From Geosiphon pyriformis uo1 (lineage: Eukaryota > Fungi > Glomeromycota), in the NCBI GenBank assembly GCA_016748015.1, contig JAAOMT010000481.1, positions 5,061 through 69,060 on the forward strand: DNA of 64,000 bases. Direction: 5' to 3'. The translations under genes and the position numbers were made by a program. Shown in pieces: positions 4,022-58,358 of the stretch (position 1 is the stretch's first letter; each line of letters starts with the position of its first letter). Under the pieces are notes generated by a model. The model was given only the letters and a program-made list of their open reading frames with translations, searched no databases and was not told the origin of the DNA.

Positions 4022-4139
4022 AACCTTGAGAGCGATAATGTTCATTATAAAAAGTTCTTAGCATTGCTTTATTTATGTCATGTTTTATAATGTACAATAT
4101 TTTAATTTTTAATTTTTAAATATAAATTTTTTACTTTTT

Positions 4140-14525: not shown

Positions 14526-14544
14526 TAACTATAACAATATAATT

Positions 14545-26634: not shown

Positions 26635-26851
26635 TCGTGTTCCTTCATAGCCGTTGGTGAGCAATCTTCTTCATATTCGCAATATACTTTTGCAAAATTT
26701 ATGTCGCTATTCATTATCTCTCAAATAATCGCTTGTACACGCATCGCAGACGCTAAATAATGATTTTGCCTATTCCATACCTTTGGTGTCGATCCTATAT
26801 CTTTTAGATCCAAATTTGGGTTACTGGTTTGGTTATAGGGAGTACGTCGCC

Positions 26852-29305
26852 ATGGAAGAAGCTTTTTCGGACTCGGAATACTGCGATCCTTGTGACGTTG
26901 CCAAAGATTTCTGCCAACACGTTGACAAAAACATGACGGAGTGGGATCCGACAGAGTACGACTCACCGTACTGTGACCTGATACAAGCTTCCGGCTTTGG
27001 AAAGTCTCGACTGATGGTAGAGATCGGGAAAATTTTACCCATTTCGTATGTTTGTCTTCGCAAAGAAGACAGTGGCGGATATCCACCTCGTTGTCCAATT
27101 GCCGATATCTTGACCGGACAGAGAAAGCTTAACGATGGGACCGGACGAGATGCCGACATGGTCAAAGTATATGTTGCATATTTTTGTGCAATATTTGAGC
27201 GCATCCAGTTCTTTTTCCATGAAATGATCGCCGAAGGATTGGCGGAACGCTGGATCCAAAAACAAATTTCCAAAAAATCATCAAAGGTTTTTTGGTTCGC
27301 AGTGGAAGCGAAAATGAGAGAAATTATTGTACAGCTTCCGTCTTTGACTGCAAATGCGAATGGCCCCACATATTTCACAAAATTAAAAATGGTTGTGTCT
27401 AAATACTGGAAGTCAACGAGAACATGCTTGGAACGACCCTGGAGAATCGATGGTTATGAAGTCAAATCACGGTTCTTGTTTGTTTTTGACGAAGCAAGGA
27501 TCCTAAATGAAAAGAAAGGACAGACCTGGAGTAACTTCGAGTGGTTGCGATACGCCATGGGGACACTTCCTGTAAACGGTGATGGTGGAGGAGTGTTTTG
27601 TGTTTTCTTGGACACTACTTCCAAGATCCATAATTTCAGTTCATTTCGTCTGCAAGAAAAAGGACGCAAACTGTTTCCTCCATTCACTGAAGTCGCGTTT
27701 GTCGATCTTTCTGCCACAGACTCGCCGCAAACCTTGGCTGAATCAGCTCTACCACAGCACTTTTTTAAATTCGGAAGACCATTATGGACGGCTTTGCATA
27801 GATCTGGCCATCTCGCACCAGCCAACGTCATATCAATCGCGAGAAGCAAGCTAATCGGTGGCATGGATTACAACGGCTGGCTAGATAAGAAGAAGGGAGA
27901 ACGGATCAATGATCTGGAGTGCCTTGCAATTCTTGGTCCTCGTCTTTGTCTGGACATTGTTCCTCAAAGCGAATTGGCCTCAACACTTACTGTAAGCTAC
28001 ATGCGCCCTTGTTTCTTCATCAACGACACACGAACCACAATTTTATGCATAACAGAAGCTACAATCGCAGAAGCTTCAGCGCAAATCACCGGTGAGTCTG
28101 AAGGGGTTGGGTTGGTAAGAGTTCTGAATCCTCTCATAAACATGATGAAGGAAGGACTGGTCGAGAGAGGATACAGAGGAGAAGTGGTTGCGCGCCTTAT
28201 TTTGTTGCATGCGTGGGACCGTGCTTGTGGTGCATTGCAGTCGTTGAATAGCGAAGAGAGTTCGAATTGGTTTTCTCGTCCTATGCCTCTGGTACGCTAT
28301 CTGAGATATCTCCTTAATTATAATGTCTACTGCGAGGTAATTTCTAAGATGGCTGAAGACGACATTAAGAAGAAGTTGTTGAAGGCATATATTCGATTTA
28401 ACCATTTCGTTGCGATCACCTATACACCGCCTCCCGAACATATTCTTGAAACGCTTAAGCGCGGCATTGCTTTTGTCTGCAAGCGATATCAACAAGGGAC
28501 AGACTTAATCATTCCTTTGGTAATGGACATTGGGATTCATGACCTTATGACGTTAAACAATATTTCTTATGTTCTGGTCTCTGTGAAGAACTATCAAAAG
28601 AGCAAAGATAATAACTACTTCAATCCGTCAAATGTCGGAATCGAACAATTACCCACCTTGCCTTTCTTATCGCTATACATGCAATTCGGTGCTAACGTGG
28701 CAGGTGTAGATGAGGAATATCACTTCCCTCAAGTTGGTACAATCACTGGAACCACCGAGGCAAAGATAGTGGGGATTCAAAGGCGTGAAAAAAATGAAGG
28801 ATTTTCCGGGAGTTTGCTACGGAAACGGAAATGCGAGTCTAATTCTGAAGAGAAAAACAGCCATGAGCTTGCATACAGACATTGTTATCAGTTTGCAGTC
28901 GGATTGTTTGGTCTCACTGCATATGATTTTTTGCAGGAAAATGATAGCGGAAATCATTTGCTGAACACTGTTCGACGATTGCTAGTGGCTTGGCAGGATC
29001 CTGTCGATTGTCAAATGGATGAAAATGATCATTTTCTGCTTCTGCAGATGCAACCATTGGTGTATACGTCAGAAGAGCCTGCTATAAGTTCGCGATCCCA
29101 GTCGACCAGCCAGTCGACAACTCCCAGAGTGAAAACTAGTGTTCATCGTGAAATCGTAGAAACCGGAAGTTCTTTGACACCAGCCTCTTTTGATTCAATA
29201 GACCAAAAACTTATTCCTAATCAGCAGAAGCTTGAAACGGACATCGCACAAGCCATTGAAGAAGCCGAGAGGTACCTCCAGGAGAAAGCAACAAAGACAA
29301 CATAA
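26852..29305 (+). CDS. Crinkler/RHS-type P-loop NTPase + PD-(D/E)xK-like nuclease protein, copy A (817 aa from ATG 26852; the ORF track starts at TTG 26783)
   Basis: An uninterrupted ~2.5 kb frame. Walker A IQASGFGKSR, Walker B FLFVFDEAR, then VFLDTTS, LFPPF, FGRPLW, GYRGEVVARL, FNHF and GTDLIIP...VLVSVKN. It is clearly paralogous to 54948-58358. The family call is from motif recognition. Confidence 0.8.
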   Translation: MEEAFSDSEYCDPCDVAKDFCQHVDKNMTEWDPTEYDSPYCDLIQASGFGKSRLMVEIGKILPISYVCLRKEDSGGYPPRCPIADILTGQRKLNDGTGRDADMVKVYVAYFCAIFERIQFFFHEMIAEGLAERWIQKQISKKSSKVFWFAVEAKMREIIVQLPSLTANANGPTYFTKLKMVVSKYWKSTRTCLERPWRIDGYEVKSRFLFVFDEARILNEKKGQTWSNFEWLRYAMGTLPVNGDGGGVFCVFLDTTSKIHNFSSFRLQEKGRKLFPPFTEVAFVDLSATDSPQTLAESALPQHFFKFGRPLWTALHRSGHLAPANVISIARSKLIGGMDYNGWLDKKKGERINDLECLAILGPRLCLDIVPQSELASTLTVSYMRPCFFINDTRTTILCITEATIAEASAQITGESEGVGLVRVLNPLINMMKEGLVERGYRGEVVARLILLHAWDRACGALQSLNSEESSNWFSRPMPLVRYLRYLLNYNVYCEVISKMAEDDIKKKLLKAYIRFNHFVAITYTPPPEHILETLKRGIAFVCKRYQQGTDLIIPLVMDIGIHDLMTLNNISYVLVSVKNYQKSKDNNYFNPSNVGIEQLPTLPFLSLYMQFGANVAGVDEEYHFPQVGTITGTTEAKIVGIQRREKNEGFSGSLLRKRKCESNSEEKNSHELAYRHCYQFAVGLFGLTAYDFLQENDSGNHLLNTVRRLLVAWQDPVDCQMDENDHFLLLQMQPLVYTSEEPAISSRSQSTSQSTTPRVKTSVHREIVETGSSLTPASFDSIDQKLIPNQQKLETDIAQAIEEAERYLQEKATKTT

Positions 29306-31916
29306 GTTGTAGATGCTGTGTATTTCCAGACAGTTATTGGTGCAACTCAAAAATAAAGTCACTTTCAGTTTTAATATATATTACTTTAAAGCAGTTCTTA
29401 ATTGGTTGCCTATTCATTATTGGATTACCCGTATATGAAAAGTTCTAATAATAACAGTTTTTACCGAATGAAAAGGCAATATGTTTCTTGGATTTAGGTT
29501 GTGATTGTCGTTGCTCAAAAAGAATTCTAAAAGAAAAGTTTGCCAAATTACGTAAGGTATTTCAAGCTCTCTCTAGATCTAAACAAGATATATTTTTAAT
29601 ACCAGTTCAAACCAATAAATAGTGGAAAAATAACTGCCAGCCAATATGTTAAAAATAAAATGCATACTAAGCGAACATTTTACTACTGAGATCACAATAC
29701 ACTGCTTTGTCAGAAAACATATCTCAATATGTTGAAAAATATCAGAAATTATCTAACAACAAATAGCATAATACCATGCATTTATAGTAACATAAAATGA
29801 ATGCCATAATGAAAAACCAAGATAATTATTGATAAAATTGTTGCTACATGAAGAATCTTTTCAAAAATTATGTTAAAATACCTAAATTACCAAGTCCTGG
29901 TAGAAATTTTAACCAAATACTTGATTACTTATACTTTTTTCAGCTAAAATAAGTTATAAATTTTATTTATTATGATTTTATTACAGGTTACAAAAGCAAT
30001 AGCATGTTAAAATTGAAAAAATATTATATATTTCACAAGCTATAACATCAACTAATGCTTTATATTCAAATTATAAATCCAAAATGAATTATGTAATACA
30101 TGTTCACATTTTTGATATAAATTATAATACAATGACTACAAGAAAAAAAAGCAAAAAATCTACTAATAAAATATAAAAAACATCTGATTAAAGTTAAATT
30201 GAAGAAATAATTATAACAAAAATATAAAATTAGCAAAATAATAAAATAATTAGTAGATAAATATTTTATGATAAGAGATAAAGCTTATTATTATAGCATT
30301 AATATTATAGTTTATTATAGCTATAATTGAGATATAAATAAAATTTATTATTTTAGTCTATGTAAAGTATATTTATTTGGTATTTAAGTTAAGACAATAT
30401 GTAAACAAATTAATTATATTTTTGATAAAAACAAAATCATAAGAAAAAAATTTAATAGCATATTAAACATAATATTTAATAAAATTAAAAAATTGAATAA
30501 AAATAAAAAACATTTAAAAAATATTTTTGATAATATAAAAAAACAAAATAATAATAAAATTACCATTTGATTTTATTTATATTTAATAATTTGCAGCTAT
30601 TATAAAAGTATTGAAAAACTTATTAAAAATAACTATTCAGTTTACAAAAGTTTTAGCATTTTCTGTTTAGCAAAGCCAATTTTGATGTAATCAAAATTTA
30701 ATAGTTTTTTTTAGAAATTCAGATTTTTAAAAATTGGCAATTCAAAGTTTTAAAAAGTAAAAAAAACAAATTTTTTTATTTTCTGTGTTAGTGTTTTCTT
30801 TAAAAAAGTATAAAGACACAAATATCTTTATAATTATATTAAGCTTTTTTTTAAGATATATTTAAAAATTAAATAATATTTAATTAAGCAAATTAGTCAA
30901 CAAAAAAATTCTCTAATTAAATTAATTGCTAACAGAAATAAAATTTTGTTTTTTTTTGTTCAAAATATATTTATAAATTTGGTAAATTATTTTAACAATT
31001 TTTTAAAAACTTTAAAAAAAAACAAATATATTCAGTTTTAATTTAAAAAATGATGTAATAAATGCTTAAAAAAATTTATTTTTGATAATACTATTAAAAA
31101 AAATAGTTTTAACTTATGCTAAATTACAAAATAAAAAGAAAAAACATTTTGAAAAAATAATTTTAAGTATAAAAAACTTAAAGTGAATTTTAAACTTGAT
31201 ATTTCTTTTTTTTAACTAAAAAAATTCTGTTAACTTTACAAAAAAATTTAATTAATAAATTATTAGTCTTAAATACTATTTATAAAAAAAAGCTTATTTA
31301 GTAAAAAGCCAGCAATTATCAATGCAAAAAAAAATTTGCTAATTTTTTAATATAAAATTAATATATTAAAAATTAATAATAAAACTTAATTTCACTATTG
31401 AAAATAAATCAAAAATTATTTTTTTAATTTTAATTTATTAATAATAATTATTTTTTAATTATTTCTATTTATAATTATTAAAAACTTAATAAATATTATG
31501 TTATATTAAATTATAAGTATAATCAACATATTTAAAAAAATAATATCTATTATATATTATTATCAATATTAGTAATTTTAAAGATAAAAATTATGTTAAC
31601 ACTATAAAAATATAAACAAAAAGTTAATTTTATGTATTGAATAATAATATGTATTTATTTTGTTTAATTTTATTACAATATGTATTATTTTCTGAATATT
31701 AATTTTAAATTAAATATAATTTATGCATAATCTATATATAATTTAATATAAACTTAATTAAAGATAAATTATAATAAAAATTTATTATAAACAAATATTT
31801 TTATTTCTAATTATATTACCTATTTATTTACTAATAATTTTGGCAGTTAATTTAATTGAAAAAAACCATTATAGAATCTAATATATTATAATTAATAATA
31901 ATATTATTAATATATA

Positions 31917-31953
<37 letters not shown>

Positions 31954-32099
31954 ATTAAACAAAATTTGTTAATTTTCAAATTTACTTTGTAAAACTTATT
32001 ATTAAAAATTATAAGATTTTTTTAATTATAAAATACTTTTTTTTCAATTTAATATATAAAACAGAAAAAACATTAAGCAATTTAAAGATTAAAATAATC

Positions 32100-33500
32100 A
32101 AAGTATTAATAAATTTTATAATAAATTTAATTAATAAAACTAATACAACTAAGTTAAACTTTAAAAACACCAATTAAAAACCAATTTTAAAATTAATAGC
32201 AGTAAAAATAATTATAGATATAATAATAAGAAAAATTAATATTATAAAACTCTTAATATATAATTTAATATTAACAAAAAAAATTAAATCTTAGAATTAT
32301 TTATAGTTTTAAATAAAAACTTAAAAAAAAAATGAAACCATTTTATAATTTGTGACCAAATAATCTGAATTTTAATATTTATAACTATAATAATATTTAA
32401 GAATTTTTTATTAAATATAACTCTTATATAAAATATTAGTTTTAAAACTACAAGATTTAAAATCTTTAATAACTTAAAAATTATAACAGCAAAAAATTAA
32501 TAATAATAAAAATTAAGAAAATAAAGAATAAAAAAATTTTATTTATTAATTTGAAAAATCATATTACTAATTTTAAAATCTGTACAGCCAAAAAAATCGA
32601 CTAACTTGGTTTTAAAATTTTTTTTTAAGATAATATTTTTTTTTAAATAAACAAAAAATTTTTAAATTAAATAATAGCATATTTTTATAAGCTTATAAAT
32701 TTCAAATAAATAAAAAAACTTTATTAAAAACATTCAATGCATTTTTAATATTATTGAAATATATATTAAGAAAGATAATATAGAATACAACAAAAAAAAA
32801 GCACAAATCACGACAAAAAACTTTATAATTTTAAGTATAATTAGAAAAAAAATTATTAATAAAAATTTTAGTAACAATTAAGAAAACTTCAAAGACAAAA
32901 TTTATACAAAACAATTTATTATTATCTTTTAAAACTGATTTAAATTTAATATAATTAGATCTTAACTAAAACAAAAATTTAATAAAAGCAATATAATCTT
33001 AAAAATAATATCAAATATTAAAGTAAAAACTATTTATTTAAAAGATTTTTTATATCAAAAAATTGTTTTCTAAATATTATCAAAAGCAGTATTAAATAAC
33101 AAAAAAAAAATAATTAATTTGGTTTTTATTTAGTTATTTTAATTTTTAAGATTAAATAATCTAATAAATTGATTAATTAAAAACACACCTAAAAATATGT
33201 CTTGTTTTGCTTCTAAAACCAGCAATAATCTGTTAAAAAACATCATACTTAATAATATATATTGTTATTATTATTGTTTAAATTAAAAAAAATTAATTAT
33301 TATAATAAAGATTTTATTTAAAATCTTATTAAATACTTTAAAGCTTTTAAAAAAAATAAAAACAACACTAAAATTAATTCAAGTATGCTTTTTGAAAGAA
33401 TTTTAAGTAAAAAAAACTACCAATTAAATGAAAAAAATGCTTTAAAAATTGTTAAAACAGCTTTATATTATTAATATTTAAAGAATATATTTTTAAAATA
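32100..33500 (-). mobile_element. Strongly decayed copy of the LINE ORF1 at 37150-39330 (its counterpart in copy B is ~61150-62400)
   Basis: 'atcaaatattaaagtaaaaactatttatttaaaagatttttt...ttttctaaatattatcaaaagcagtatta' (33010-33093) aligns with 'accagacaccagagtagaggccacctatccagcaaactttt...tttcccaagcatcaccagaagcagtacta' (38572-38656), differing mainly by C>T/G>A. Confidence 0.65.
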
Positions 33501-34029
33501 TTTTGCTTAATTGTTTTTACAATAGAAAATAATTTTTTTGTTAAAATTTTGTTAATATTATAGAAAAAATAATATATAAAACTTTTTATTTTTGCTTTAA
33601 TTATAGTTATAAAAATAAAATAAAAAGGTTTTTTTAATTAAATTTTTATTTTATTGTTTTTATGTTTTATTATTTTTATTAATAAATTTTAAATATTAAT
33701 AAAATAATAATATTATTATTTAATACTTAATAAAATATAATTTAATTGTATTTTATAAATATAAAGATAAAACATTAATATTATATTTTAATAATTTATT
33801 TAAAATCAATTAACAAAATTTTATTATTATTAATATGTATATTTTAATATTATTTATTTAAAAACAACAATAAAGTAGTTAAAAATAAATAAAATTTATA
33901 TATTTTTTATATATAGTAAACTTTTTTATGGTTTTTTTTGGTTATAGTTATTATTTTTTATAATCACATTTTTTTAAAAACCAAAACTATTTATAAATAA
34001 TATTATCGTTTTATAGTTATTTTTACTAT

Positions 34030-35497
34030 ATATTTTTTTTTATAATGTTTATTTTTATAAACACAATTGCAAAATATAAGTAATTTTTATTTTTTATAAT
34101 CATATTGTGGCTCAAATGTTATTTTGTTTTAAATATTATTATGTAAAATATTTCAGATATTATAAAGTGTTTTTAATTATAAAAAATGCTCCAAATATTA
34201 TTTTAAAATGCCAACTCTATTTTGTATTTAAGTATTATAATAATAAGACTTATATTAATCTATTATTGTTTATTTTATTCATAAATTTATTATTATTAAT
34301 ATAATTCTAAAGATTATAATATGCTAATTATTGTAAAATAATATATTTTGCTTGGTCTTAGTGGTAAATATTAAATAATTGCTTAAGAATTTAATTAGCA
34401 TTACTATAATAATTGTTATAACTATTCAAAAGTAAATTACTATTGCCATATTAATTTTTAAGACTATTTAAAAATAAGTAAATTTAATTATTATTGTTGT
34501 ATTAATTATTATAGTTATTTAGAAATAAATAAATTTGATTTATATTAATATTAATTGTTATAGCTGTTTAGAGATAAGTAAAATAAATATTATTACAGTA
34601 TTGATTATTAAAGCTCTTTAAAAATAAATAAATCTGACTATTATTATTATATTAATTGTTAAAATTATTATTATTATATTAATTATTAAAACTGTCTAAA
34701 AATAAGTGAATTTGATTATTATTAATATATTAATTATCAAAACTGTTTAGAAGTAAATAAATCTGAATACTATTATAATATTAATTATCATATTACCAAT
34801 TTTATAAACAGAATTTATTGAAATTATAAACATATTATTAAGTGTTTTTAAAATAAAAAAATAAATTATTAAATATTTTTATTAGCTATAGTGTTTGGAT
34901 AATTAATATAGGTATTTTTGTGTTTAAAAAATTTGTAATATAATATTATACTATTTTTTATGCAATTATACAAGTATACAAAAAATCAAATTAACAGCTT
35001 TTATTATTAATTATCAATTGTAAATAAAAATAGACAAGAGACAAAAAGTATTACAAATATATTATAAAAATTAAATTTTTTTTACCAAAAATTTGTTATT
35101 TTTTATACTTAAAATTCTATAATTCATATGATTTTATTTGCAAAATAATATTAAAAAAAGTTTTTTATTATTAAGAAAATATTACAAAATTCAATTATTA
35201 TTATTAAGATATTAAAATATCATATATTTAAAATAAATTAATAATAGAAAATAATAAAACTAATTTGTTATTAAAAAACATAATTATACAAATCCAAATA
35301 TACTGTAAAATATAAAATATTAAGTATATTAAATTAAAATCTTTATTTTTATAATTTGAAGCATTTTTTATAATTTAAAATATTTTATATGTCAAATTAA
35401 ATATAAAGTATCTTAAATAATATTTAAAGCAAAACAATATTTGAGACACAATAGATATATTAATACACTATAAAAACAAAATATAATAAAAAGTATA
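34030..35497. mobile_element. Decayed non-autonomous element with long inverted ends and internal tandem repeats
   Basis: 34103-34200 (tattgtggctcaaatgttattttgttttaaatattatt...aattataaaaaatgctccaaat) matches the reverse complement of ~35352-35453. Internal iterations such as 'aattattaaaactgtctaaaaataagtgaatttgattattatt' occur at ~34400-34790. Confidence 0.5.
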
Positions 35498-35499
35498 TA

Positions 35500-36960
35500 A
35501 ACCAAAAACTATTGCTTTGTTCTTATAATATGCCAAAAAACACAAACCAAAAACAAGCAGCAGTTTTCTTAAAAACTAAAAAAAATTTTTGTTAATACAA
35601 ACTAAAACATTTTTATTACTTAATACAAACTAATTAAAATATTTAACCTAAAAATTAATCACTCTATTGTGACAAAAACACTTATAAAATTAAACTAATA
35701 ATTTAAAAAATATATATTTAACAACTTTGATTAATTAACAAAAGACAGAAAAAAAATGTTTCTAAAGATAAATAATATATTAAAAGAATAAATATTTAAA
35801 ATACTAATTATTAATTGTAATTTTATAAAAAAAATTTTACAAATAAATATATTTAAGTTTGCCCAAAAGTTTTTGAAAGAAAATAACTTTAAAACATTAA
35901 ATAATTGATTAGAAAAGTTTAAAAAATGACATAATTTGTATTATATTAAGATATATGACAAAGCAAACAGTGTTTTTTTAAAAATTTTACCAAAAAAATG
36001 AGAATAATTGTATAAAATTATCAGTAAATATAATCTAAATAATGTTTATAATACTAATAATATAAAATTATTCTTTAAAATATTATTAAATACAACTTTA
36101 ATAATAAGATCTACTTTTAATATCAAGCATAATAAAAGTCAGATTATTATACTTTTTGTTTATAATACAACAGATAGTATTAAGTTGCAGTTCTTATTTA
36201 TTGACAAAACTGCAAAGCTATAATTTTTTTACAATATTAACATAAATATACTTCTAATTACTTATTACTACAATATAAAAACATAAATGCAAACAGATAT
36301 TTTAATGAATAACTTAATATATTAAATAAAAAAATATGCTGTTAAAAAAAAGTTATTATTGCTCAATAATATTAGTTTTCATAATAAAAAATTTTCTATA
36401 TTATTTAATATTATGAATAAATATTTACTATTCAATACAACATTCGATTTACAATTATTAAATGTAAAAATTATTGTATTTTTTAAGACATAATATTAAA
36501 AGCTGTTTTTTTATTATTTTATTAATCAGTATAATAACAAAATTTCAGTATTGACAGTAATATTAAAAAATATAATTGACTTTTTAATTGATACATGGTT
36601 AACAGTAATAATAATTGCAATCCAAAACTGTTGATATTATACAGAAATTTTGGATAATAGCCAAATTTTAGTTTATCTATTAGATATTAAACAAAAACTT
36701 TTACAAAAAGTATAGATTCTTATTAAGCATGTTATTATTAACAAGCTGTTAGCAATAAACTTTATTAATATTAACAAATTCGAATTATTATTTACTTATA
36801 TCTTAGAAAATAAATTATGAATCTTATTAATAGCAAATATAATAGAAATTTTAATGCAAATGAAGATTTAAAAAGTAAAAATAAACTTATATTATTGCTA
36901 TCTATATATTAAAGTAAAATTGCACTTAAAGATATACTACATTATTGTAAAAAACAATAT
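35500..36960 (+). mobile_element. pogo/Tigger (CENP-B HTH + DDE_1) transposase relic
   Basis: FKTLNN*LEKFKK*HNLYYIKIYDKANS corresponds to FKASNGWLxxFKxRH...HGE. NVYNTNNIKLFF corresponds to NVYNADETGLF, and LLFNTTFDLQLLNVKII to LPPNTTSxLQPLDxGII. A possible 5' terminus is at ~33913 (tatagtaaac...). Confidence 0.8.
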
Positions 36961-37149: not shown

Positions 37150-39330
37150 CACGTGACTAGTCATTCAGACCAATCAAGAACACACTGTGCTAAAACAATA
37201 TGAAGTGAAAATAATCCCAACTCACGAATTTTTTTAATAATACCATTCAGATTCCTAGAATCAAAAATAAACTCACTAAAAAATAATCTAGTAAATTCAA
37301 TACTACTCCTAATCTTAGCACCTGACATCTACCACAAAGCTATAACATGCTCAACAGTGTTTTCACTCAAAAGAGAAGGTTTGGTGGCTTGTATATCATC
37401 ATAATCCATGCCACCAAAGTCAACTTCAGATCTAAGACAAGCAATGTTCTTAGACACACCAACCATAAAACTGGCAAAATTATTAGAAGCATATTTCATA
37501 GAAAGGAGATCTTTTTCAATCTGAACAGCTTTAACAGCATTATTATCAAAAAGACAAGATACCAAGACAACCAAAGAGCCAACAGGCTTAACAATAGACT
37601 TTACCAAAGCAGCCAAATCCGAAATTTGCTTTTCCGAAAAAGTTCAATCTGAACCTAACAGCAGGATCAACAATAGCCACAGAAGAGGCAGAAGCCACCA
37701 AAGAAGGAAATTCAGACATAACAGAAGGAGCAGATGCCTTAGCATAAGACAAAGAACCAACAAAGCATGGTTTAAACATCTTGGGAGCCTTAAGAAAAGG
37801 AGATAAAGCAACTTTACAATCTACAACCAAGTGACCTGTTTCTTGACACCAAAAACAATGCTGACAATCAGGAGTCTTCCACCAAATACAGCACTTTCTA
37901 AGTATACCAGTTTTGACAACAGCAAGATCCAAATCAGCTTGGGAGCCAAACATAACCAGAGCAAAGCGGAAATGATGACCAGAATCAGAAAACTGAGGAA
38001 TGAAACAAAACTGGCCACCAACCTGAGAAATCATATCACTGATTTCAAAGACAGTACAACCAGAAGGAAGGTTGACCAACTTGGCCTTAAACTTATTATG
38101 AGACAAAATAGTCTCATTTTAATTTACCAGAGAGAGAATTCTAATACTATCCTTGTCCACCAAAACTGACCAATGATTCAAAGCAGATACAGCAGAGTCC
38201 AACTTTTTAAAATAAACTACCACATACTGCCAAACACCAGCAGGCTTTAGCACAACACAAGTAACACTACCAAACACACTGAGAGCTGTCTTAATGTCAG
38301 CAGCAGACATACCCAAGGGCATATCACACAGTACAACAGCAGCAAAAAGGGAACCAGACTCAGAAATTATTAAAGACTTGGCAATTTTGAGGGAGGCCAA
38401 ATGTACAGAGCTTGTAAGCTCAACCAAGAATACAGCTTTCAAAAACACTTGAGAAACAAACTCCACATAAAACAGCTTCACATTGTCTTTTAATACTGAT
38501 TTCGCACTCAAAAAACCATGTATTGACTGAAACACAGTCTTAACATAAGCCAATTTGATCTTAAAAGTAGCACCAGACACCAGAGTAGAGGCCACCTATC
38601 CAGCAAACTTTTGACGACTAGTAATAGTTTCCCAAGCATCACCAGAAGCAGTACTAGAAATTAGAAGAGAAGATGAATCAGTTTCTATTTGATTAGTCCA
38701 GTTCTCAAGAACAGGTGACTCAACAGAAGGAGATTGTTTTGCTTCCAGAACCAGCAAAGATCTGCCAGAAGACTCCACATTTGGCAACACAGCCAGTAAT
38801 TAATCTTGGCCTATCTTGAATGACATGCCAGATGATGCTCTGAAGATCTTATCTAAGATTTCATTGGAAACCACAAAGGAGTTTGGTGTAACAATAGCAA
38901 AGGCAAGTGACTGTCCCCACTTCTCTGAACTTTTGGTCTTTTTAACCATTTTTTTGAAGAGGTGGTATTAGCAACACCAAGTGTTGAATCTATAGAAGGA
39001 AAAACCAGCTTATTTACTGGTCTATTATTAAAAACTTTTGGGCTCTTGGTTGGGGTGGAGGCAACACTGGGACTAACCCAAGTGTGTTTCTTTGAGGGAA
39101 CTTTGACTGGTAAAAAACCAGCCAAAGATGAGGAAGTTGCTTCAATGGTCACCAAAAGCAGCTTATTACGATTACTGGGTAAGAAGAAAACTTCTAAAAC
39201 GTTTTGCCTAGTTGTTTCTACAACAGAGAAAGCTTCTCTGGTTGAAATTTTATTAGATATCTCAGAACAGATATCAGATGCAGCTTTTTTACTCTTTGCT
39301 TTGGTCGTGGTCATAAAATTAAGAAGACAA
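37150..39330 (-). mobile_element. Non-LTR retrotransposon (LINE) ORF1 region, relatively well preserved, ORF2 not seen
   Basis: Consecutive ORF pieces (39314-37329) broken by a few stops and frameshifts. They include RRM-like segments (VVLCDMPLGMSAADIKTALSVFGSV...WQYVVVYF; KAKLVNLPSGCT...FALVMFGS) and the CCHC zinc knuckle CFWCQETGHLVVDC. Confidence 0.8.
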
Positions 39331-39457
39331 AGAGTTTTTTTTTTTTAATTTTTATTTAATTAATTATAAAAAATCTTGCAAATAAATAGCTTTTTCGAAT
39401 ATTAAAAATAAAAAATATATTAAATAAATTAAAATTTACACTTTTTTTTAAATATAA

Positions 39458-49291: not shown

Positions 49292-49769
49292 TAGCTACTG
49301 AATTTTTTTTTATAGTTAAACTTGTGTAATCAATTTGTAGCGACATTTAATTTCTTAACATAGGGGAACAGCAGTATAAATAGGGACTCTGCCTTTAAGA
49401 AATTACTTACTTTCTAAAACGTACTATTAATAAAAGATTTAAAAAAGCTCTCTTCGAATTATAACCTATTCACATATAAAATTTTATTCAGAAATACATG
49501 ATTGCAACCTGTGTTCACCCTGTCAAGAGAGTATTATAAATAATAATTCTAATCGTTGAAGCTCATGCTGGTTCATATTTTTTGAAAAACTTTACCACGA
49601 CTTTTGAAGCAGCAATAAAGTAGTCAATGAAATAATTAAGAATCCAATCTATATTCCACCTAATCGATCTAATATTCATAAGGCTAATTTTCATTACTAT
49701 GAATGGATTCCATGGGAGCGTTTGTCGAATATCAACGAAATTGCTAGGGGAGGATTCAGTAGAATTATA

Positions 49770-49962
49770 AAGCAACCCTAATTGATGAATTAATTAATAA
49801 ATATATTATGAAAAATCATGGTTTCATAGAATATAAAAGATGGGGAGTAGAGGAGGAAGTAGCAATAAAAATTATGCCAACAAACAGTGAAGACGTGTTT
49901 AAAAAGGTAAACAAAAACTATTATTATTTTATATTTATATTTATTATTTTATGTATTATTAT

Positions 49963-50001
<39 letters not shown>

Positions 50002-50870
50002 TTTTACACTGTGTTGACAGTTAAATATTCAAAGAGTTATTGAAATTAATAATAGTGGATATATAAGTGATTATATCACTTCAATCTATGGGATTACGCA
50101 AAATGCTGAAACAGTCAAATATGGAATTGTGATGGAGTTTGCTAAACATGGAGATATGCGAAAATATTTATCAAAAATTTTCATTATATGAGTGGGTTGG
50201 AAAAATTAAGGATCGCATGGAAAATAGCTAATGGACTTTCTTTAATTTATACTTATCGTATGGTTCATCATGACTTGCGCTAGGGCAACATCCTACAAAA
50301 GGATCTACAATCGGTACGAATTGGAGACCTCGGATTATCTCAAGCAATAAACTATGAAGCAACAACAACAGAAAAAAAAAAGATACATGGAGTTATTCCA
50401 TACATTCAACCAGAAGTCTTAAGAAAAGAAAAGCTTACTTCAGCTGATAATATTTATAGTTTTGCCATGTTATTATGGGAATTAGCAACAGAAAAGCCTT
50501 CTTTTCATGATCGTTTTCATGACCACCTTCTTATAATGGATATTTTGAATGGTTAAAGACCTAAGGTTACTTCCTCACTTATTCCATTTTGTTTTGCTGA
50601 AATAATTGTAATGTGTTGGGATGCTAATTTTAAAAATCGTCCTACTGCGGAAGAAGTTGGGAGAATTTTGGACGTTCTATAAGTGGTGCAAGTATAACTC
50701 TGGAAATCCGACGTCTAGATATCGAAAGTTTATAGAACAGTCTAAAACTGAGAAAATGGAACAGTTTTTAGTATCAAAAAAATGGCAGAAGGTTAAACAA
50801 CGACAACGAGCATACATCGAGGAGCAGTTTATAGAAGTTGTCTTTTAACTTTGCAAATGATTGATTTTTC
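49770..50870 (+). pseudogene. Tyrosine-kinase-like (TKL) protein kinase pseudogene
   Basis: EVAIKIM, intron 49907-50020, IYGITQ...YGIVMEFAKHGDMRKYL, a frameshift at ~50180, MVHHDLR*GNIL (TAG at 50281), IGDLGLS, GVIPYIQPEVL, IYSFAMLLWELAT and CWDANFKNRPTA. The Gly-rich loop is missing. Confidence 0.9.
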
Positions 50871-53800
50871 TAAAGATTACTATTTTAGAAATCCTGATTA
50901 AAAATTTTCAATAAAAAATGTTTTGAAAGAATGTAATAAAAGGAATCACAGCTAATTATTATCTTTGATAAATATTTTATCTCTAAATTAAATTTATTTC
51001 TATTTATAAGTGTTTAATATTAACCTTCATTTACAGTTTTAAATCTACCAATATAATGTAAAAATTGATATAAGATCTTTAACATCAATGATTAAATTAG
51101 CAAAAAAAGCAAATAATTTAATTTCAAGTGGATCATAATAAATATACATTTATTTTAATCTTTTATCATCTGATTTTCATTATCAGAATAAAATTTGATG
51201 ATAGTAAACTCTTTATTTGGAAAAATATTATAAAATATTATTCAAAAAAATATTTTTTATAAATTTTTGCCTTGATAAATATTGGAAAATTTTAATTATT
51301 AATAATTTAAACTCTTTTATATATACCAAGTTTTAAACAATAAATCATGTAAGTTAAGATTTAATAATAAGGTTTTGAAAAAAATTACACATAGTAATAG
51401 ACTTGGTTACTATTATTTAAGAACCAATTTCATATTTTTAATTTCATAAATTAATAAACTATTTTTTTGGTTAATCTTAAAAATATTTCCAAAATTTAGA
51501 AGCAGTAATTATTATACAATAACGATTAAATTTGAACACTTAAATTATAATTATAATTTTCATTATTTTTAAAAATTTTAGTAAAAAATTTAACAAAAAT
51601 AGTTAATATAGCAACAAAAAAAATTTATTCAAAAATATATAAATCTTACATATATCAAAAACATTTTTTTCTTAAAATATTATTTTACCTCTTTTTAAAT
51701 AGTTTATAATAACTATTTCTCAAAATTATTACTCTTATAAAAAAACAAAATATTTACTTTTATTAATATTTTAATAGTTATTATAATTTAATAAAAACTT
51801 TAACAGTGTTTTAATAAACCAAACAATAATTATATTTTTTACATAAAAAATACTTAATAAAAAAAAACAAAGCTCAAAACAACAAAAGCAAATATTTAAT
51901 AAATTTTAAAACAGTTGAATTAATAAACATTTATTACAAAATTAGAACAGCTTTTAAATTCTACAACTTATTTAATACTTATAAAACATTTTATAAAATT
52001 TAATATTACAACCAATAAAAATTCAATATATTGAAAAGTTTATAAAATTAATATTTTAAAAATTCTCAGACCAAATTGTCTCAATAATTTTGAAAAATTA
52101 CAAACAATACTTTGACTTTAATAAAATTTAGTCATAAAAAAAAATTATATTACTCAAGTAAAAATTAAGTTATTAATTAATATAAAATTGTTTTTATAAT
52201 TCTATTATTAATTAGTATATAATATTATTTTTATTTTATTATTTTTTATTTTATTAAATTATTATATAATATTATATAATACCCAAGTATAACTAAATAT
52301 AATAATCAAATTATATAATATTTTAAATAAAATAATATTTAAAAATTTGCCAAAATATATATTTAAATACCAAAAATTTTATTAAACTATTAGCAAAAAA
52401 ATACTAATAAAATATATAAAAAAAAGTTTTCTTTAAAAAAATTTTAAGTTAGAAATAAACACATAAAATAATTAGTTATTACAAATAAACAAAATAAATT
52501 TTTACTTTTTATAATTATATTGCTTTAAAATTTACAATTTAACTAATATTTTGAAATTAATCAGTTATTAGCTTTAATAACAATTTAACTAACTTCAATC
52601 TAAACAAAAAACTATTTTTTTTGTTTAAAGTCCTTTTTTTTTAAATTATTAAAAAATTTATAGTCAAGTTTCTTATAAAAAAGTTAATTTTTATAACAAA
52701 ATAATTACATATAAAAATTGGAAAAAATTTACAATCAAAGATTTTTGCAGAAAAATTAACTTTATTGCAAAGTAACTATATTAAGTAATTAGTACAGAAT
52801 TGATTATTTTATTATAAGTCTAATAAAATATATAGTTTAAAGTATAAAAAATACTTTAAAAATAAATTAGCTTATTAAAAATTTAACAACTTTTATTAAA
52901 AGCACACAATTAATAATTTTTTAATATTAACAATATCTTAAAAAATGATTAAATATTAAATAATAATATATTATATTATAAACTTTATGTTTTTAAAATA
53001 CAAAAAATTAAACTTATTAAATTTATTTATAACAACTTAAAGACTATTAACATTATTTTTTTGTCTTTAAATAAAAATAAACTATTTTTTTAACATAAAA
53101 ATCTGGTCTTCTGTTTTTTATTATTGTTATTCTTAAATTTTTGTTTTAATCTATTTTAATAAGAAGTATTTTGTATTAAACTTTTGTAAAATATTTGAAA
53201 TAAAAGTTTAATTAAACAATTAATTCTTTAGTATATTACATTTTTTGTTGTGTTATCTAAATTTTGTTTTTTAAATACGTTTTGCTAGATTATTTTACAT
53301 TTATTTGAATTTATTTGAATAAATTCAACAAACTAAAAAAAATTTCTTTTTTTTATAAAAAAATACAACCAATTTTTGTATAAATAATATATTAATAAGA
53401 GATATAAAATTATTTGCTTAATTTAAAACAGTATTAAATAATTAAATAAAAACATATTAAATTAAAACAGTTTTATTAACTTGTATTTTATTGTAACTTT
53501 ATTCTTTACAAATAATAAATAATATGAAAAACTTAATATGCTAAAAGCAAAAAAAAACATAGAGTATTTCATAAAATTGAAAATACAACAGTTTAAATTA
53601 AATGTTTCATAAACAAAAAACATATTATTATATTTACTTTACACTATGTATATATTACTTTATGTTTCTAAATGCAAAAGATTTTTGAAAGAAAAATAAT
53701 GATAATTAAAAGTAATTTTTACAAATTTTTTATTCTATTTTATTTTTCAATGCCCAATTCATAAAGTTATTATTAGTCTTAATTATTTTTATCAATATAT

Positions 53801-54899
53801 TTTGTAATTTTTGTATTTATACTCTTTACTTATTCTTATTTACTTTTAAGTTTTTTATTTCTTTTTTTAGCTTTTTCTTATCCTCTATTTTTCAATTTTT
53901 TGGTTTTTATTATAATACTTTTTCTTTCTCAACTTTTTTTTTAATTTACTTAACTTATTTTTTTTTGTCCAACTTTTTACTTTATTATTTCAGCTTCTTT
54001 ATGTATCTTTTATATTGGGTCATTGCCACTTCTAATTGATGTTTGATAGCTTTAATAGTGGTCGTGATGTTTTGTGTATTTGTTATGATTTGAAAAAATA
54101 TGGTTAATATATGTGTGGTTATGTAAGTAATATTTCAGATCTTTTATCTATTAGTATAAATTACTATTTAGATAACAAAGCCACTTTTATTAAATAGCCC
54201 CTACAGTATGCTTTGTAATATGAATGTTTATTTTAATGTGTAAAATTCATTAATAATATTGTTCATTTTTTTCTCCTGAAGACATAGCCCAACGAATTAT
54301 TAAATATTAGACTGGAGCCAATTAAGACTATTAGTTACCACCACAGCAAACTTTCTATTGGCTACTAATTTCTCCAAATATGTTGCCTATGTTAGTCACC
54401 ATCTGAAACGGCTTGCACATGCCCATGGCTCATCAATATTGTTATTTATTTTTTAATTTAAATATTAAATTAACTTTCAAGTCATTATTGTATTATATAT
54501 TTTTAACATTTAATATTGTAGCATAATAATATTTAAATAATAATATTAAAAAAATATTTGGGGCATGCTGCAACAAAACCAGACAAAGTGAACATTTGAC
54601 GGCATTAACGGATATTTTTAATCCTTGGTTTGGTGGCACAACCGTGGCTCAACATAAATTTATCAACTATTAAAGACAGTTTGATTTACCTCTGAACCCT
54701 TTTTCTTTGACGATAAACAAAGATTACTTCAAACACATAAATCACTAATTAGTATGGTTAGAACTATTCGTACGAATCTAGCCATGTCAAAGGTATGTTA
54801 AAAACATCAATCACAGGGGCAACAATCAGACAATCTGATTTGATGCGTGCGATTGTTCTGCAACGTGATATGCCCCATGATACAAGGGAGCACAGCAAG

Positions 54900-54907
54900 A
54901 TATAAAC
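54900..54907 (+). promoter_or_regulatory. Candidate TATA box of the NTPase-nuclease gene
   Basis: TATAAA at 54901-54906 in a locally GC-richer context, followed by a pyrimidine tract and aacATG at 54948. Confidence 0.4.
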
Positions 54908-54947
54908 GCGCTCACGTTCTTTTGTTTCCTTCTCATAACTTGACAAC

Positions 54948-57900
54948 ATGAACCAAGTCAATTGGGAATTTGTTAATCAATACGCTCGACAGAATCCTAA
55001 GGCTACATACGACGAAATTTACGCAGAGTGCCTCAAGACACAAAAAGGTAAGCAAGGAAGCAATGCACGTTTATTAGGAAAATGTTACGAATCTTGACAA
55101 CACAATAGTTGGGACGAGTTGAATCGTAGCAGAGCTAGGTTATATGTAAACTCATTTCAAAGGTGAACTGGAGGAGACAAGAGACATTATGGGTTAATAG
55201 AGGAGCAACGGGGGTTCGTAGAATAGCCATGGGGGTCTACAGAGTGAGAATAGTTGGAATGCATTACGACACGCACGTTGAGAGGAGTATAGAATAGAGC
55301 ATTGTCGTAAAGGTTAGGTTATACGTAAACTCGTTACAAAGATAAACTGGAGATATACTATTTATGCGTTTGGGTTAAATAGAATAGGAGCAACAGAGGG
55401 AGAATAGTTCGAATGCTGTTAGAATAGGCGTAGCAGCGCGCAATGTTCTTCTATTTTCATTTATTTGAGAACGTTGGATATTAGTTCGAAGAGTAGTCGA
55501 AACGCGTTACTGGGCATTTATTTGATCACTCATTCTGATATTTTCGTCGTATTCATTATATCTCTTCCTACATATTCATCCGTCGTGGAAATTTATTGAT
55601 ATTTTGACGCTACATTTTTTCGGTATATTGCGTAACATTCGTTTCTATCCATACTCGTGTTCCTTCATAGCCGTTGGTGAGCAACCTTCTTCATATTCGC
55701 AATGTACTTTTGCAAAATTTATGTCGCTATTCATTATCTCTCAAATAATCGCTTGTACACGCATCGCAGACGCTAAATAATGATTTTGCCTATTCCATAC
55801 CTTTGGTGTCGATCCTATATCTTTTAGATCCAAATTTGGGTTACTGGTTTGGTTATAGGGAGTACGCCGCCGTGGAGATAGCATTTTCGGACTCGGAGTA
55901 CTGCGATCCTTATGGCGTTGCCAAAGCGTTCTGCCAACACGTTGACAAAAACATGACGGAGTGGGATCCGACAGAGTACGACTCACCGTACTGTGACCTG
56001 ATACAAGCTTCCGGCTTTGGAAAGTCTCGACTGATGGTAGAGATCGGGAAAATTTTACCCATTTCGTATGTTTGCCTTCGCAGAGAAGACAGTGGCGGAT
56101 CACCTCGTTGTCCAATTGCCGATATCTTGACCGGACAGAGAAAGCTTAACGATGGAACCGGACGAGATGCCGACATGGTCAAAGTATATGTTGCATATTT
56201 TTGTGCAATATTTGAGCGCATCCAGTTCTTTTTCCATGAAATGATCGCCGAAGGATTGGCAGAACGCTGGATCCAAAAACAAATTTCCAAAAAATCATCA
56301 ATTGTTTTTTGGTTCGCAGTGGAAGCGAAAATGAGAGAAATTATTGTGCAGCTTCCGTCTTTGAATGCGAATGCGAATGGCCCCACATATTTCACAGAAT
56401 TAAAAATGGTTGTGTCTAAATACTGGAAGTCAACGAGAACATGCTTGGAAAGACCCTGGATAATCGATAGTTATGAAGTCAAATCACGATTCTTGTTTGT
56501 TTTTGACGAAGCAAGGATCCTAAATGAAGAGAATGGACAGACCTGGAGCAACTTCGAGTGTTTGCGATACGCCATGGGAACACTTCCTGTAAACGGTGAA
56601 GGTGGAGGAGTGTTTTGTGTTTTCTTGGACACTACTTCCAAGATCCATAATTTAAGTTCATTTCGTCTGCAAAAAAAAGGACGCAAACTGTTTCCTCCAT
56701 TCACTGAAATCGCGTTTGTCGATCTTTCTGCCACAGACTCGCCGCAAACCTTGGCTGAATCAGCTCTACCACAGCACTTTTTTAAATTCGGAAGACCATT
56801 ATGGACGGCTTTGCATAGATCTGACCGTCTCGCACCAGCCGCCGTCATATCATTCGCGAGAAGCAAGCTAATCGGTGGCATGGATTACAACGGCTGGCTA
56901 GATAAGAAGAATGGAGAACGGATCAATGATCTGGAGTGCCTTGCAATTCTTGGTCCTCGTCTTTGTCTGGACATTGTTCCTCAAAGCGAATTGGCCTCAA
57001 CACTTACTTTAAGCTACATGCGTCCTTGTTTCTACATCAACGACGCTCGAACCACAATTATGACAGGATGCGTATCAGAAGCAACACTCGCAGAAGCTTC
57101 AGCGCAAATCACCGGTGAGTCTGAAGGGGTTGGGTTGGTAAGAGTTCTGAATCCTCTCATAAACATGATGAAGGAAGGACTGATCGAGAGAGGATACCAA
57201 GGAGAAGTGGTTGCGCGCCTTATTTTGTTACATGCGTGGGACCGTGCTTGTGGTGCATTGCAGTCGTTGAATAGCGTAGAGAGTTCGAATTGGTTTTCTC
57301 GTCCTATGCCTCTGGTACACTACCTGAGATATCTCCTTAAGTATAATGTCTACTGCGATGTGATTTGTAAGATGGATGAAGACGACATTAAGAAGAAGTT
57401 GTTGAAAGCATATATTCGATTTAACCATTTCATTGCGATCACCTATACACCGCCTCCCGAACATATTCTTGCAGCACTTAAGCGCGGCACTGCTTTTGTC
57501 TGCAAGCGAAATCAACAAGGGACAGACTTGATCATTCCTTTGGTAATGGACATTGGGATCCATGACCTTATGACGTTGGACAATATTTCGTATGTTCTGG
57601 TCTCTGTGAAGAACTATCAAAAGAGCAAAGATATTAACTACTTCAACAATGCGACAAGCATAAATTATCCGTCAAATGTCGGAATCGAACAATTACCCAC
57701 CTTGCCTTTCTTATCGCTATACATGCAATTCAGTACTAACTTGGCAGGTGTAGATGAGGAATATTACTTCCCTCAAGTTGGTACAATTACTGGAACCACC
57801 GAGGCAAAGATAGTGGAGATTCAAAGGCGTGAAAAAAATGAAGAACTTTCTGGGAGTTTGCTACGGAAACGGAAATGCGAGTCTAATTCTGAAGATAGCG

Positions 57901-58358
57901 AAGTGAACTACAGCGATGAGCTTGCATACAGACATTGTTATCAGTTTGCAGTCGGATTGTTTGGTCTCACTGCATATGATTTTTTGCAGGAAAATGATAG
58001 CGGGAATCAGTTGCTGAACACTGTTCAACGATTGCTAGTGGCTTGGGAGGATCCTGTCGATTGTCAAACGGATGAAAAGGAGCATTTCCTGCTTCGGCAG
58101 ATGCAACCATTGGTGTATACGTCAGAAGAGCCTGCTATAAGTTCGCGATCCCAGTCGACCAGCCAGTCGACAACTCCTAGAGTGAAAACTAGTGTTCATC
58201 GTGAAACCGTAGAAACCGGAAGTTCTTTGACACCAGCCTCTTTTGATTCAATAGACCAAAAACTTATTCCTAATCAGCAGAAGCTTGAAACGGACATCGC
58301 ACAAGCCATTGAAGAAGCCGAGAGGTACCTCCAGGAGAAAGCAACAAAGACAACATAA
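54948..58358 (+). CDS. Crinkler/RHS-type P-loop NTPase + PD-(D/E)xK-like nuclease protein, copy B (exons 54948-55047 and 55828-58358, 876 aa; possible 6-nt micro-exon at 55671-55676)
   Basis: Exon 1 MNQVNWEFVNQYARQNPKATYDEIYAECLKTQK ends at G|GTAAGC (phase 1) and joins in frame to CTTTTAG|AT at 55828, giving 100+2531=2631 nt. Motifs are as in copy A (QASGFGKS, FVFDEAR, GRPLW, GYQGEVVARL, NQQGTDLIIP, LVSVKN). Confidence 0.82.

What the first reader, a model, noticed from the sequence alone, without database searches (positions are those of the whole stretch)
26635..58358. Two GC-rich NTPase-nuclease (Crinkler/RHS-like) genes on an ~11 kb duplicated block: effector, defence or selfish mobile module
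Seen: two paralogues ~29 kb apart in the same orientation, roughly 90% or more identical by eye. Each has a ~2.5 kb intron-free exon that is visibly richer in GC and CpG than the host genes nearby. Motifs: Walker A (QASGFGKS), Walker B (FVFDE), a sensor-like DTTS, and a C-terminal E...D...(S)xK arrangement (GEVVAR / GTDLIIP / LVSVKN). Established: eukaryotic Crinkler-RHS proteins often combine a STAND/AAA+-related NTPase with a restriction-endonuclease-fold domain and have been proposed to derive from transposons. Inference: this member lacks a recognisable LxLFLAK ubiquitin-like header and has a short novel N-terminal exon. Its composition and its duplication together with its flanks suggest recent acquisition or mobility, and a role in conflict (toxin, non-self response or drive).
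Basis: partly seen in the sequence, partly recalled or inferred. Interest (0 to 1): 0.75.

Follow-up and report, generated by a model that had tools for sequence, protein, structure and literature searches.

The report
Duplicated fungal ATPase-nuclease conflict genes
A soil fungus carries two nearby copies of an unusually GC-rich gene whose product is predicted to be an ATP-switched DNA-cutting enzyme of a widespread eukaryotic conflict-protein type; one copy has lost its predicted front end, and the pair looks like ordinary local duplication rather than a self-moving element.

Summary
The two genes are real: ORFs 26729-29305 (A) and 55749-58358 (B), 91% identical in protein, GC3 0.44 against 0.29 in neighbouring host exons. 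A database labels B as a Geosiphon pyriformis hypothetical protein. Models give a STAND/ORC-Cdc6-like NTPase, a winged helix, and a C-terminal domain with restriction-endonuclease topology and conserved E, D and K; the fold scores are low (Z up to 5.5). The family is large (1,740 clusters); its named members are fungi, an oomycete and an amoeba. This is the architecture of Crinkler-RHS (CR) proteins, without the LxLFLAK header. Corrections: the duplication is not one continuous 11 kb block. A lacks B's predicted first exon and promoter and is joined to a Ty3/gypsy-like relic. Contig depth favours two loci, not haplotypes. I found no terminal repeats or target-site duplication, and a neighbouring host gene is multi-copy too. 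New details: only A and B, of 108 aligned proteins, have the conserved sensor loop cut to 8 residues. The closest named relatives (64-81% identical) are Paraglomus and Funneliformis fragments rather than Ambispora (41%), so transfer between mycorrhizal fungi is possible but unproven. Verdict: a new member of a known kind.

The parts
54555..54947 (+). GC/CpG-rich upstream region of copy B (likely promoter). A short multi-copy repeat starts at about 54555.
   Evidence: GC 0.38, 12 CpG. 8 contigs begin here with differing upstream letters; bin depth 3043.
54948..55047 (+). Predicted exon 1 of copy B: a 33-residue header with no signal peptide and no Pfam match
   Evidence: ATG and GT donor in the sequence; same exon in database model P0001; Pfam none; hydropathy
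55048..55827 (+). Predicted 780-nt intron of copy B, GC 0.38 with 39 CpG. Its last 173 nt are shared with A, and part is shared with the decayed copy P0004.
55828..58358 (+). Exon 2 of copy B: NTPase, winged helix, nuclease-fold domain and low-complexity tail
56004..56027 (+). Walker A of B (QASGFGKS)
   Evidence: K in 97 of 100 aligned rows with a residue
56496..56510 (+). Walker B of B (FVFDE)
   Evidence: D in 108 of 108, E in 106 of 108
56628..56666 (+). Sensor-like DT and the S-x-R motif (likely arginine finger), with a spacer of 8 residues instead of the family's 15
   Evidence: spacer 15 in 91 of 108 rows and 8 only in A and B; low pLDDT there
56790..56798 (+). GRP motif, in the position of the STAND GxP motif (name recalled)
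   Evidence: G in 106 of 108
57204..57611 (+). Predicted nuclease active-site residues of B: E486 (57204), D593 (57525), S-x-K621 (57609)
   Evidence: E 109 of 111, D 109 of 111, K 77 of 101; they lie on helix 1, strand 2 and strand 3 of the model
57864..57875 (+). RKRK basic patch, a possible nuclear localisation signal
   Evidence: function inferred
26635..26807 (+). 3' end of the intron kept in copy A. Homology to B starts at 26635.
26808..29305 (+). Copy A long exon, open frame. First in-frame ATG at 26852 (GTG in B) would give a headerless 817-residue protein. In-frame deletions of 2, 7 and 3 residues relative to B.
24313..26634 (-). Stretch that replaces B's upstream region in A. Its 3' 0.6 kb (26019-26636) is a decayed Ty3/gypsy-like pol relic, cut inside the reverse transcriptase at the junction with A.
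   Evidence: RVT_1 E 8.8e-08 at 26502-26636 and RT_RNaseH_2 E 3.5e-11 at 26022-26177; junction; the rest of the stretch was not assigned
23196..24312 (+). Upstream duplicated block of A (partner 50900-51960)
   Evidence: 4.6% substitutions
50900..51960 (+). Upstream duplicated block of B
29306..30628 (+). 3' flank of A, duplicated with the gene (partner 58359-59776)
   Evidence: 4.6% substitutions
58359..59776 (+). 3' flank of B
30629..33945 (.). AT-rich tail on the same diagonal as 59777-62712 but much more diverged
   Evidence: 16-27% substitutions

Best explanation
Copies A and B are two genomic loci of a gene predicted to encode a Crinkler-RHS-type conflict enzyme, a STAND-like ATPase that likely switches on a C-terminal restriction-endonuclease-fold DNase inside the fungus's own nuclei, and they likely arose by ordinary local segmental duplication. 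Shown: the two loci, the motifs, the large family and the shared flanks. Predicted from models: an NTPase, winged helix and nuclease fold. Inferred: ATP binding drives assembly on DNA, as in ORC/Cdc6, TnsC or Avs proteins, and licenses cutting by E486/D593/K621; the protein has no signal peptide and has a basic patch, so it would act in the nucleus, killing or damaging nuclei or DNA treated as non-self in the shared cytoplasm. History, inferred: a family member lost 7 residues of the sensor loop, then spread to several loci; one duplication at about 4.5% divergence made A and B; a later rearrangement replaced A's promoter and first exon with DNA that holds a gypsy-like relic; other copies decayed by C>T and G>A changes. 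B is the complete gene. A is probably on its way out.
For: Fold: pLDDT 86.5; best matches Avs3 Z 10.7 (278 aligned, rmsd 5.0), archaeal Walker-type ATPase 2qen Z 9.0, ORC subunits, NLRs, TnsC and MuB. C-terminal model: helix, three strands, helix, strand, with E, D and K at the canonical places; 12 of the top 30 matches are titled restriction, nicking, resolving or repair endonucleases and I recall 14 more as PD-(D/E)xK nucleases. Conservation. Family of 1,740 clusters with named members in Glomeromycotina, rusts, a polypore, a blastoclad, Phytophthora and an amoeba. A feature-neighbour cluster carries the Crinkler header in 19% of members (lead only). SAM-like headers in two relatives (below cut-off). 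Selection: dN/dS 0.64, p 0.03; 4 of 4 ORF indels in frame; no stop after 98 substitutions, p 0.013 in simulation. Two loci: depth 116.7 against 116-147 expected for two loci and 58-73 for haplotypes. Host neighbour also multi-copy.
Against: No activity, expression or localisation data. Nuclease fold Z is at most 5.5, and Foldseek found nothing at E <= 0.001. No Pfam or PADLOC match for the core. Selection is weak: dN/dS is about 1 in the helical and tail regions, 5 of 11 indels in the non-coding flank are also multiples of three, and the open frames are why the genes were noticed. Both copies carry the shortened loop; B also lacks one residue in a conserved G-x-P-x-R motif and A lacks a helix after the catalytic lysine, so either may be inactive. 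The third catalytic position is S (12 of 101 rows) rather than Q (73 of 101). The GC-rich intron and promoter and the close Paraglomus and Funneliformis fragments are not explained by plain vertical descent.
Confidence: 0.55

Rival explanations
1. Both copies are young pseudogenes of a disabled sub-lineage. Only the SAM-headed, full-loop paralogue (P0003) is functional, and A and B have simply not decayed yet.
For: Shared 7-residue loop deletion, unique among 108 rows and also present in decayed copies P0004 and P0173. Further deletions in conserved motifs in each copy. A has lost its promoter and exon 1. Exon divergence of 3.9% is close to the 4.6% of the flanks. Other copies show mainly C>T and G>A changes, 411 of 593 places.
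Against: dN/dS 0.64, p 0.03, and 0.44-0.48 in the two enzyme domains (p 0.05-0.09 each). No stops or frameshifts. CpG o/e near 1, against 0.15 in a decayed retroelement nearby. All Walker and E/D/K residues kept.
Confidence: 0.2
2. The gene is a selfish, horizontally mobile unit: a GC-rich 3.8 kb module that moved between mycorrhizal fungi and spreads by cutting DNA or by killing nuclei that lack it.
For: The whole B island, intron and promoter included, is GC 0.38-0.44 in a genome of 29% GC (PMC9453076 Table 1). The window clade holds Paraglomus (81% over 201 aa; 64% over 128 aa) and Funneliformis fragments (63-67%), while Ambispora members are 41%. AU tests reject a Geosiphon+Ambispora clade and a Funneliformis clade (p about 2e-05 and 4e-05). 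Paraglomus occultum has higher GC (36.8%). Family sequence is annotated on five contigs of this genome. Related CR elements include the beetle Medea1 killer (PMC11342252 passages).
Against: No terminal inverted repeat or target-site duplication. A and B were copied with unrelated flanks. Sister subclades also cross orders at 62-70% identity, so ancient paralogy with losses fits the tree. Paraglomus may be sister to the Geosiphon-Ambispora clade (not rejected in PMC9453076). The fragments are short (15-22% of columns), and the 50% clustering can hide closer relatives. The clades tested were chosen after seeing earlier trees.
Confidence: 0.15
3. It is an exported effector aimed at a partner or competitor, such as the cyanobacterial symbiont, plants or other microbes, like the secreted Rhizophagus CRNs.
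For: Secreted CRNs with REase and NTPase domains occur in Rhizophagus irregularis (PMC6131194 passages). A neighbour cluster has Crinkler headers in 19% of members.
Against: No signal peptide, LxLFLAK or HVLV motif. No Crinkler header among 114 relatives scanned. The paralogue's header is SAM-like with basic patches.
Confidence: 0.07
4. A and B are two haplotypes of one locus, assembled in tandem by mistake.
For: Same orientation and contig, about 4.5% divergence. No record spans both copies.
Against: The contig that mixes A and B letters has depth 116.7; two loci predict 116-147 and haplotypes 58-73. The run may be the assembly's own sample, and the tool warns that depth is not a copy number.
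Confidence: 0.03

Closest known systems
Crinkler-RHS (CR) proteins of the NTPase + HTH + REase type (Zhang et al. 2016, read only through PMC5289972 section 11 and passages of PMC11064341 and PMC6131194)
   Same: Header, P-loop NTPase, helix-turn-helix and C-terminal REase-fold nuclease in that order; lineage-specific expansion next to transposon relics; presence in fungi, oomycetes and amoebae.
   Different: No ubiquitin-like LxLFLAK header and no signal peptide; a 33-residue predicted header in B and none in A; S-x-K instead of Q/E-x-K; shortened sensor loop. Which numbered CR-NTPase or CR-REase clade this is could not be tested.
Rhizophagus irregularis RiCRN proteins (PMC6131194, passages)
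   Same: Glomeromycotan CR proteins with REase and NTPase domains; RiCRN1 has predicted NLS motifs.
   Different: Those have an LFLAK-like header and a predicted signal peptide. Sequence relatedness was not tested.
Bacterial Avs3/Avs4 STAND defence nucleases and NLR NB-ARC modules
   Same: Best structural match for the NTPase module (8dgc Z 10.7); nuclease domains of both Avs3 and Avs4 appear among the C-terminal matches.
   Different: Nuclease is C-terminal here and N-terminal there; no repeat sensor domain; 12% identity; no PADLOC match.
Tn7 TnsC / Mu MuB AAA+ regulators and ORC/Cdc6
   Same: Fold matches at Z 7.6-9.0; CR NTPase-REase pairs are linked to prokaryotic transposable elements (PMC5289972).
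   Different: No DDE transposase and no element ends were found here.
Tribolium Medea1 (CR-NTPase8 + CR-REase7; PMC11342252, passages)
   Same: NTPase + REase architecture in a selfish killer.
   Different: Clade identity not tested; no evidence of drive here.

Membership tests
CR (Crinkler-RHS) NTPase-HTH-REase proteins | P-loop NTPase of the STAND / ORC-Cdc6 type | tested here: met
   Walker A, Walker B, DT and GxP conserved; Avs3 Z 10.7, 2qen Z 9.0, ORC Z 8.4-9.0. 'ORC-Cdc6 STAND clade' as the CR definition is recalled.
CR (Crinkler-RHS) NTPase-HTH-REase proteins | Helix-turn-helix between NTPase and nuclease | tested here: met
   Helices plus a beta hairpin at model residues 350-411, inside the span aligned to Avs3 and 2qen; not searched as a separate domain
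CR (Crinkler-RHS) NTPase-HTH-REase proteins | C-terminal restriction-endonuclease fold with E, D and (Q/E)xK | tested here: met
   Topology, conservation and a match list dominated by such nucleases; best Z only 5.5 (rmsd 4.5, 136 aligned); window copies have S-x-K
CR (Crinkler-RHS) NTPase-HTH-REase proteins | An N-terminal header domain of some CR type | tested here: inconclusive
   33-residue predicted exon in B with no match; SAM-like headers below cut-off in P0003 and P0070; PF20147 in 19% of a neighbour cluster
CR (Crinkler-RHS) NTPase-HTH-REase proteins | Match to the numbered CR-NTPase and CR-REase profiles | not testable with these tools
   Paper and supplement not held
Classical Crinkler (CRN) effectors | Ubiquitin-like LxLFLAK header ending in HVLVxxP (PF20147) | tested here: not met
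   No motif, no Pfam match
Classical Crinkler (CRN) effectors | Secretion and translocation into a host cell | not testable with these tools
   No hydrophobic N-terminus
Autonomous DNA transposon | Terminal inverted repeats and target-site duplication | tested here: not met
   None around either copy; left-edge motif has no inverted partner, 147 and 153 of 300 shuffles score as well. Flanks of the copies on other contigs could not be read.
NLR / Avs STAND receptors | C-terminal repeat sensor (TPR, WD40, LRR, ankyrin) | tested here: not met
   C-terminus is a nuclease fold and a short tail; no repeat family in Pfam
Ty3/gypsy-like LTR retrotransposon relic upstream of A | Reverse transcriptase followed by RNase H | tested here: met
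   RVT_1 32.5 bits and RT_RNaseH_2 43.5 bits, both above cut-off, in that order on the minus strand; Ty3/gypsy assignment rests on recalled motifs

The most novel reading that the evidence does not exclude
A GC-rich ATPase-nuclease module has jumped between distantly related mycorrhizal fungi (Geosiphon, Paraglomus, Funneliformis) and acts as a Medea-like nuclear killer in their multinucleate cytoplasm, with the short-loop and headerless copies serving as tamed or antidote forms.
Probability: 0.12. Interest if true: 0.8.

Novelty: new member of a known kind. Interest (0 to 1): 0.36.

Why it matters
CR-type NTPase-nuclease proteins outside pathogens have few tested functions. This family has 1,740 clusters and no Pfam model, and the locus offers a natural series for a direct test: a complete gene (B), a headerless copy (A), a SAM-headed full-loop paralogue and decayed copies. 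If the module also moves between mycorrhizal fungi, it would bear on how nuclei compete and how genes are exchanged in these coenocytic, apparently asexual symbionts. If not, it is one more case of birth and death of conflict genes in a repeat-rich genome.

Tried and rejected
Whole genome not held, so copies and flanks elsewhere could not be read. Pfam, PADLOC and PDB sequence searches gave no match for the core. Foldseek gave nothing at E <= 0.001 in PDB or viral structures. Scans for related loci in metagenome, prokaryote and viral contigs gave 4, 2 and 1 loci with short weak matches (31-38% over 56-93 codons), treated as chance and not followed; these scans find close relatives only. Rfam and tRNA scans of the window: none. 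No RNA holder listed, so expression is untested. Runs X2 and X3 barely cover the locus. Terminal repeats and target-site duplications: none. Exon 1 header: best other match P0027 at E 0.48, not significant. A regular-expression count of the loop length mis-cut some rows and was replaced by the alignment count. The 62-row tree is the quick version and left out 85 of 147 eligible rows. Earlier findings of the scan: nothing. Seven paper searches listed no paper that I could tie to this family or locus; I saw listings for most hits. No complex prediction was run.
Full report
Observation. The window is AT-rich eukaryotic DNA with two GC-rich peaks at 27-29 kb and 55-58 kb. They hold + strand ORFs of 858 codons (A, 26729-29305) and 869 codons (B, 55749-58358), 791 of 870 residues identical. 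A protein search returned B at 100% with the source label 'hypothetical protein [Geosiphon pyriformis]', and two further paralogues with that label. The long exons have GC 0.44, GC3 0.44 and 47 CpG/kb, against 0.35, 0.29 and 22 in seven pooled neighbouring host exons.

The duplication. Self-comparison gives three segments on one diagonal, not one block: 23196-24312 with 50900-51960, 26635-30628 with 55655-59776, and an AT-rich tail to 33945/62712 at 67-81% identity. Substitutions are 4.6% upstream, 3.9% in the exon and 4.6% in the 3' flank, which fits one event; the tail is 16-27% diverged. Between the first two segments the copies are unrelated. B has a GC-rich upstream region, a predicted 33-codon first exon (54948-55047) and a 780-nt intron; the database model uses the same exon, with two extra residues at the joint. 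In A the DNA next to the junction is a decayed reverse transcriptase and RNase H on the minus strand, cut at 26635. So A has lost the predicted promoter and header. Its first in-frame ATG (26852) is GTG in B and codes for V in P0003 and P0004, so it is derived and could give a headerless 817-residue protein.

Two loci or haplotypes. In DNA run X1, a 572-nt contig carries A letters at some sites and B letters at others, at depth 116.7. The four exact-match contigs between 15 and 23.3 kb have depths of 71-90. With 347 of 542 words shared, and single-copy depth 71-89, two loci predict 116-147 and haplotypes 58-73. The tool warns that depth is no copy number, and X1 may be the assembly's own sample. 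Contigs over the 3' half of the gene have depth 426-486, and 411 of 593 variant places over the B region are C>T or G>A, so several decayed copies probably exist. Family sequence is annotated on five contigs. The neighbouring metallopeptidase gene has depth 427, so duplication here is not special to this gene.

The protein. Pfam has no match for the core. A full search found 1,740 clusters at E <= 0.001. Of 30 hits looked up, the named ones were Glomeromycotina, Puccinia, Fibroporia, Sorochytrium and the amoeba Soliformovum, and the rest were unnamed; Gigaspora and Phytophthora rubi came. The model of residues 45-800 has pLDDT 86.5. Its N-terminal 425 residues match Avs3 (Z 10.7), an archaeal Walker-type ATPase (Z 9.0), ORC subunits, NLRs, TnsC and MuB. 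The C-terminal model has a helix, three strands, a helix and a strand, with E486 on helix 1, D593 at strand 2 and K621 on strand 3. E is kept in 109 of 111 rows, D in 109 of 111 and K in 77 of 101; the position two before K is Q in 73 and S in 12 of 101, including A, B and P0003. The best structural matches are weak (MspJI Z 5.5), but 12 of the top 30 are titled restriction, nicking, resolving or repair endonucleases, and I recall 14 more as the same fold. Foldseek found nothing significant. B has no signal peptide and has an RKRK patch. P0003 starts with a SAM-like domain below cut-off.

A shared lesion. Between the conserved DT and S-x-R motifs the spacer is 15 residues in 91 of 108 rows and 8 only in A and B. 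The decayed copies P0004 and P0173, which were not in that alignment, share the short form, and P0003 does not. By analogy with AAA+ ATPases (recalled) this loop positions the arginine finger, so hydrolysis or assembly may be altered. B also lacks one residue of a conserved G-x-P-x-R motif; A lacks 2, 7 and 3 residues elsewhere. Selection since duplication is weak: dN/dS 0.64, p 0.03; 4 of 4 ORF indels in frame against 5 of 11 in the flank; no stop in 98 substitutions, p 0.013, though open frames were the reason for notice. Amino-acid changes split 24 on A and 24 on B, with 18 ambiguous.

Origin. Trees give three glomeromycotan subclades. The window clade (100/100) holds Paraglomus brasilianum (81% over 201 aa), P. 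occultum (64%) and Funneliformis fragments (63-67%), while Ambispora members are 41%. AU tests reject a Geosiphon+Ambispora clade and a Funneliformis clade; I named them after seeing trees. PMC9453076 (passages and Table 1) gives 29.25% GC for Geosiphon and 36.77% for P. occultum, and does not reject Paraglomus as sister to Geosiphon-Ambispora. B's intron and upstream region are GC 0.38, against 0.22-0.32 in five nearby non-coding stretches. This fits transfer between mycorrhizal fungi, but sister subclades also cross orders at 62-70%, so old paralogues with losses fit as well. No donor is claimed. I found no element ends.

Mechanism. Most likely (0.55) a nuclear, ATP-switched DNase used in conflict within or between mycelia, duplicated with its flanks, with B complete and A decaying. 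The fold is predicted; oligomerisation, cutting, location and role are inferred. Rivals: both copies dead (0.20), mobile selfish unit (0.15), exported effector (0.07), mis-assembly (0.03).

Comparison with what is known. The review PMC5289972 (section 11 read in full; passages) describes CR proteins with NTPase + HTH + REase, diverse helical headers, and occurrence in free-living eukaryotes. PMC6131194, PMC11064341 and PMC11342252 (passages) add Rhizophagus CRNs and Medea1. PMC8647823 (passages) shows CpG methylation of repeats in Rhizophagus, which would explain the decay pattern. PMC10512289 and bioRxiv 10.1101/2025.06.16.659975 (passages) added nothing decisive. The primary paper by Zhang et al. 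and its supplement were not held, so the numbered clade is untested. The gene works like a CR protein and is probably one; it is not a classical LxLFLAK Crinkler, an NLR or a recognisable transposon. A feature-neighbour cluster with Crinkler headers in 19% of members is a lead only.

Verdict. Observation partly confirmed, interpretation partly supported. New member of a known kind; interest 0.36.

Noticed in passing
window 54555-54600: A short repeat that many contigs share from this point with different upstream DNA (8 loose ends, bin depth 3043 in X1). It marks the left edge of B's GC-rich island and has no inverted partner in the window.
   Followed up: partly
window 9184-13402: BTB/BACK-type gene (+) and a zincin-like metallopeptidase gene (-, HELMHGLG). 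Contig depths of about 190-510 suggest several copies of this stretch.
   Followed up: partly
window 37329-39344 (-) and 63451-63998 (+): Decayed gag-like retroelement ORFs with weak RRM and zinc-knuckle matches and CpG o/e 0.12-0.15; related sequence is fused to the decayed paralogue model P0004.
   Followed up: partly
window 19757-20179 (-): Tc1/mariner transposase relic (HTH_Tnp_Tc3_2, E 2e-11)
   Followed up: no
window 18422-18781 (+): Ras-family (Rho-like) GTPase exon, apparently single copy (depth 79); used as a depth control
   Followed up: partly
window 49763-50860 (+): Tyrosine-kinase-like gene, possibly broken, that ends just before the duplicated block of B
   Followed up: no
window 3866-5103 and 14527-15366: Decayed tandem arrays of about 140-310 bp units, the first with inverted copies
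   Followed up: no
window 30-36 kb, 40-47 kb, 59-63 kb: Long stretches of only 10-17% GC with few CpG, partly homologous to each other in both orientations; probably extremely decayed repeats
   Followed up: no
window 55136-55436: Direct repeats of 38 and 24 nt inside B's predicted intron
   Followed up: no
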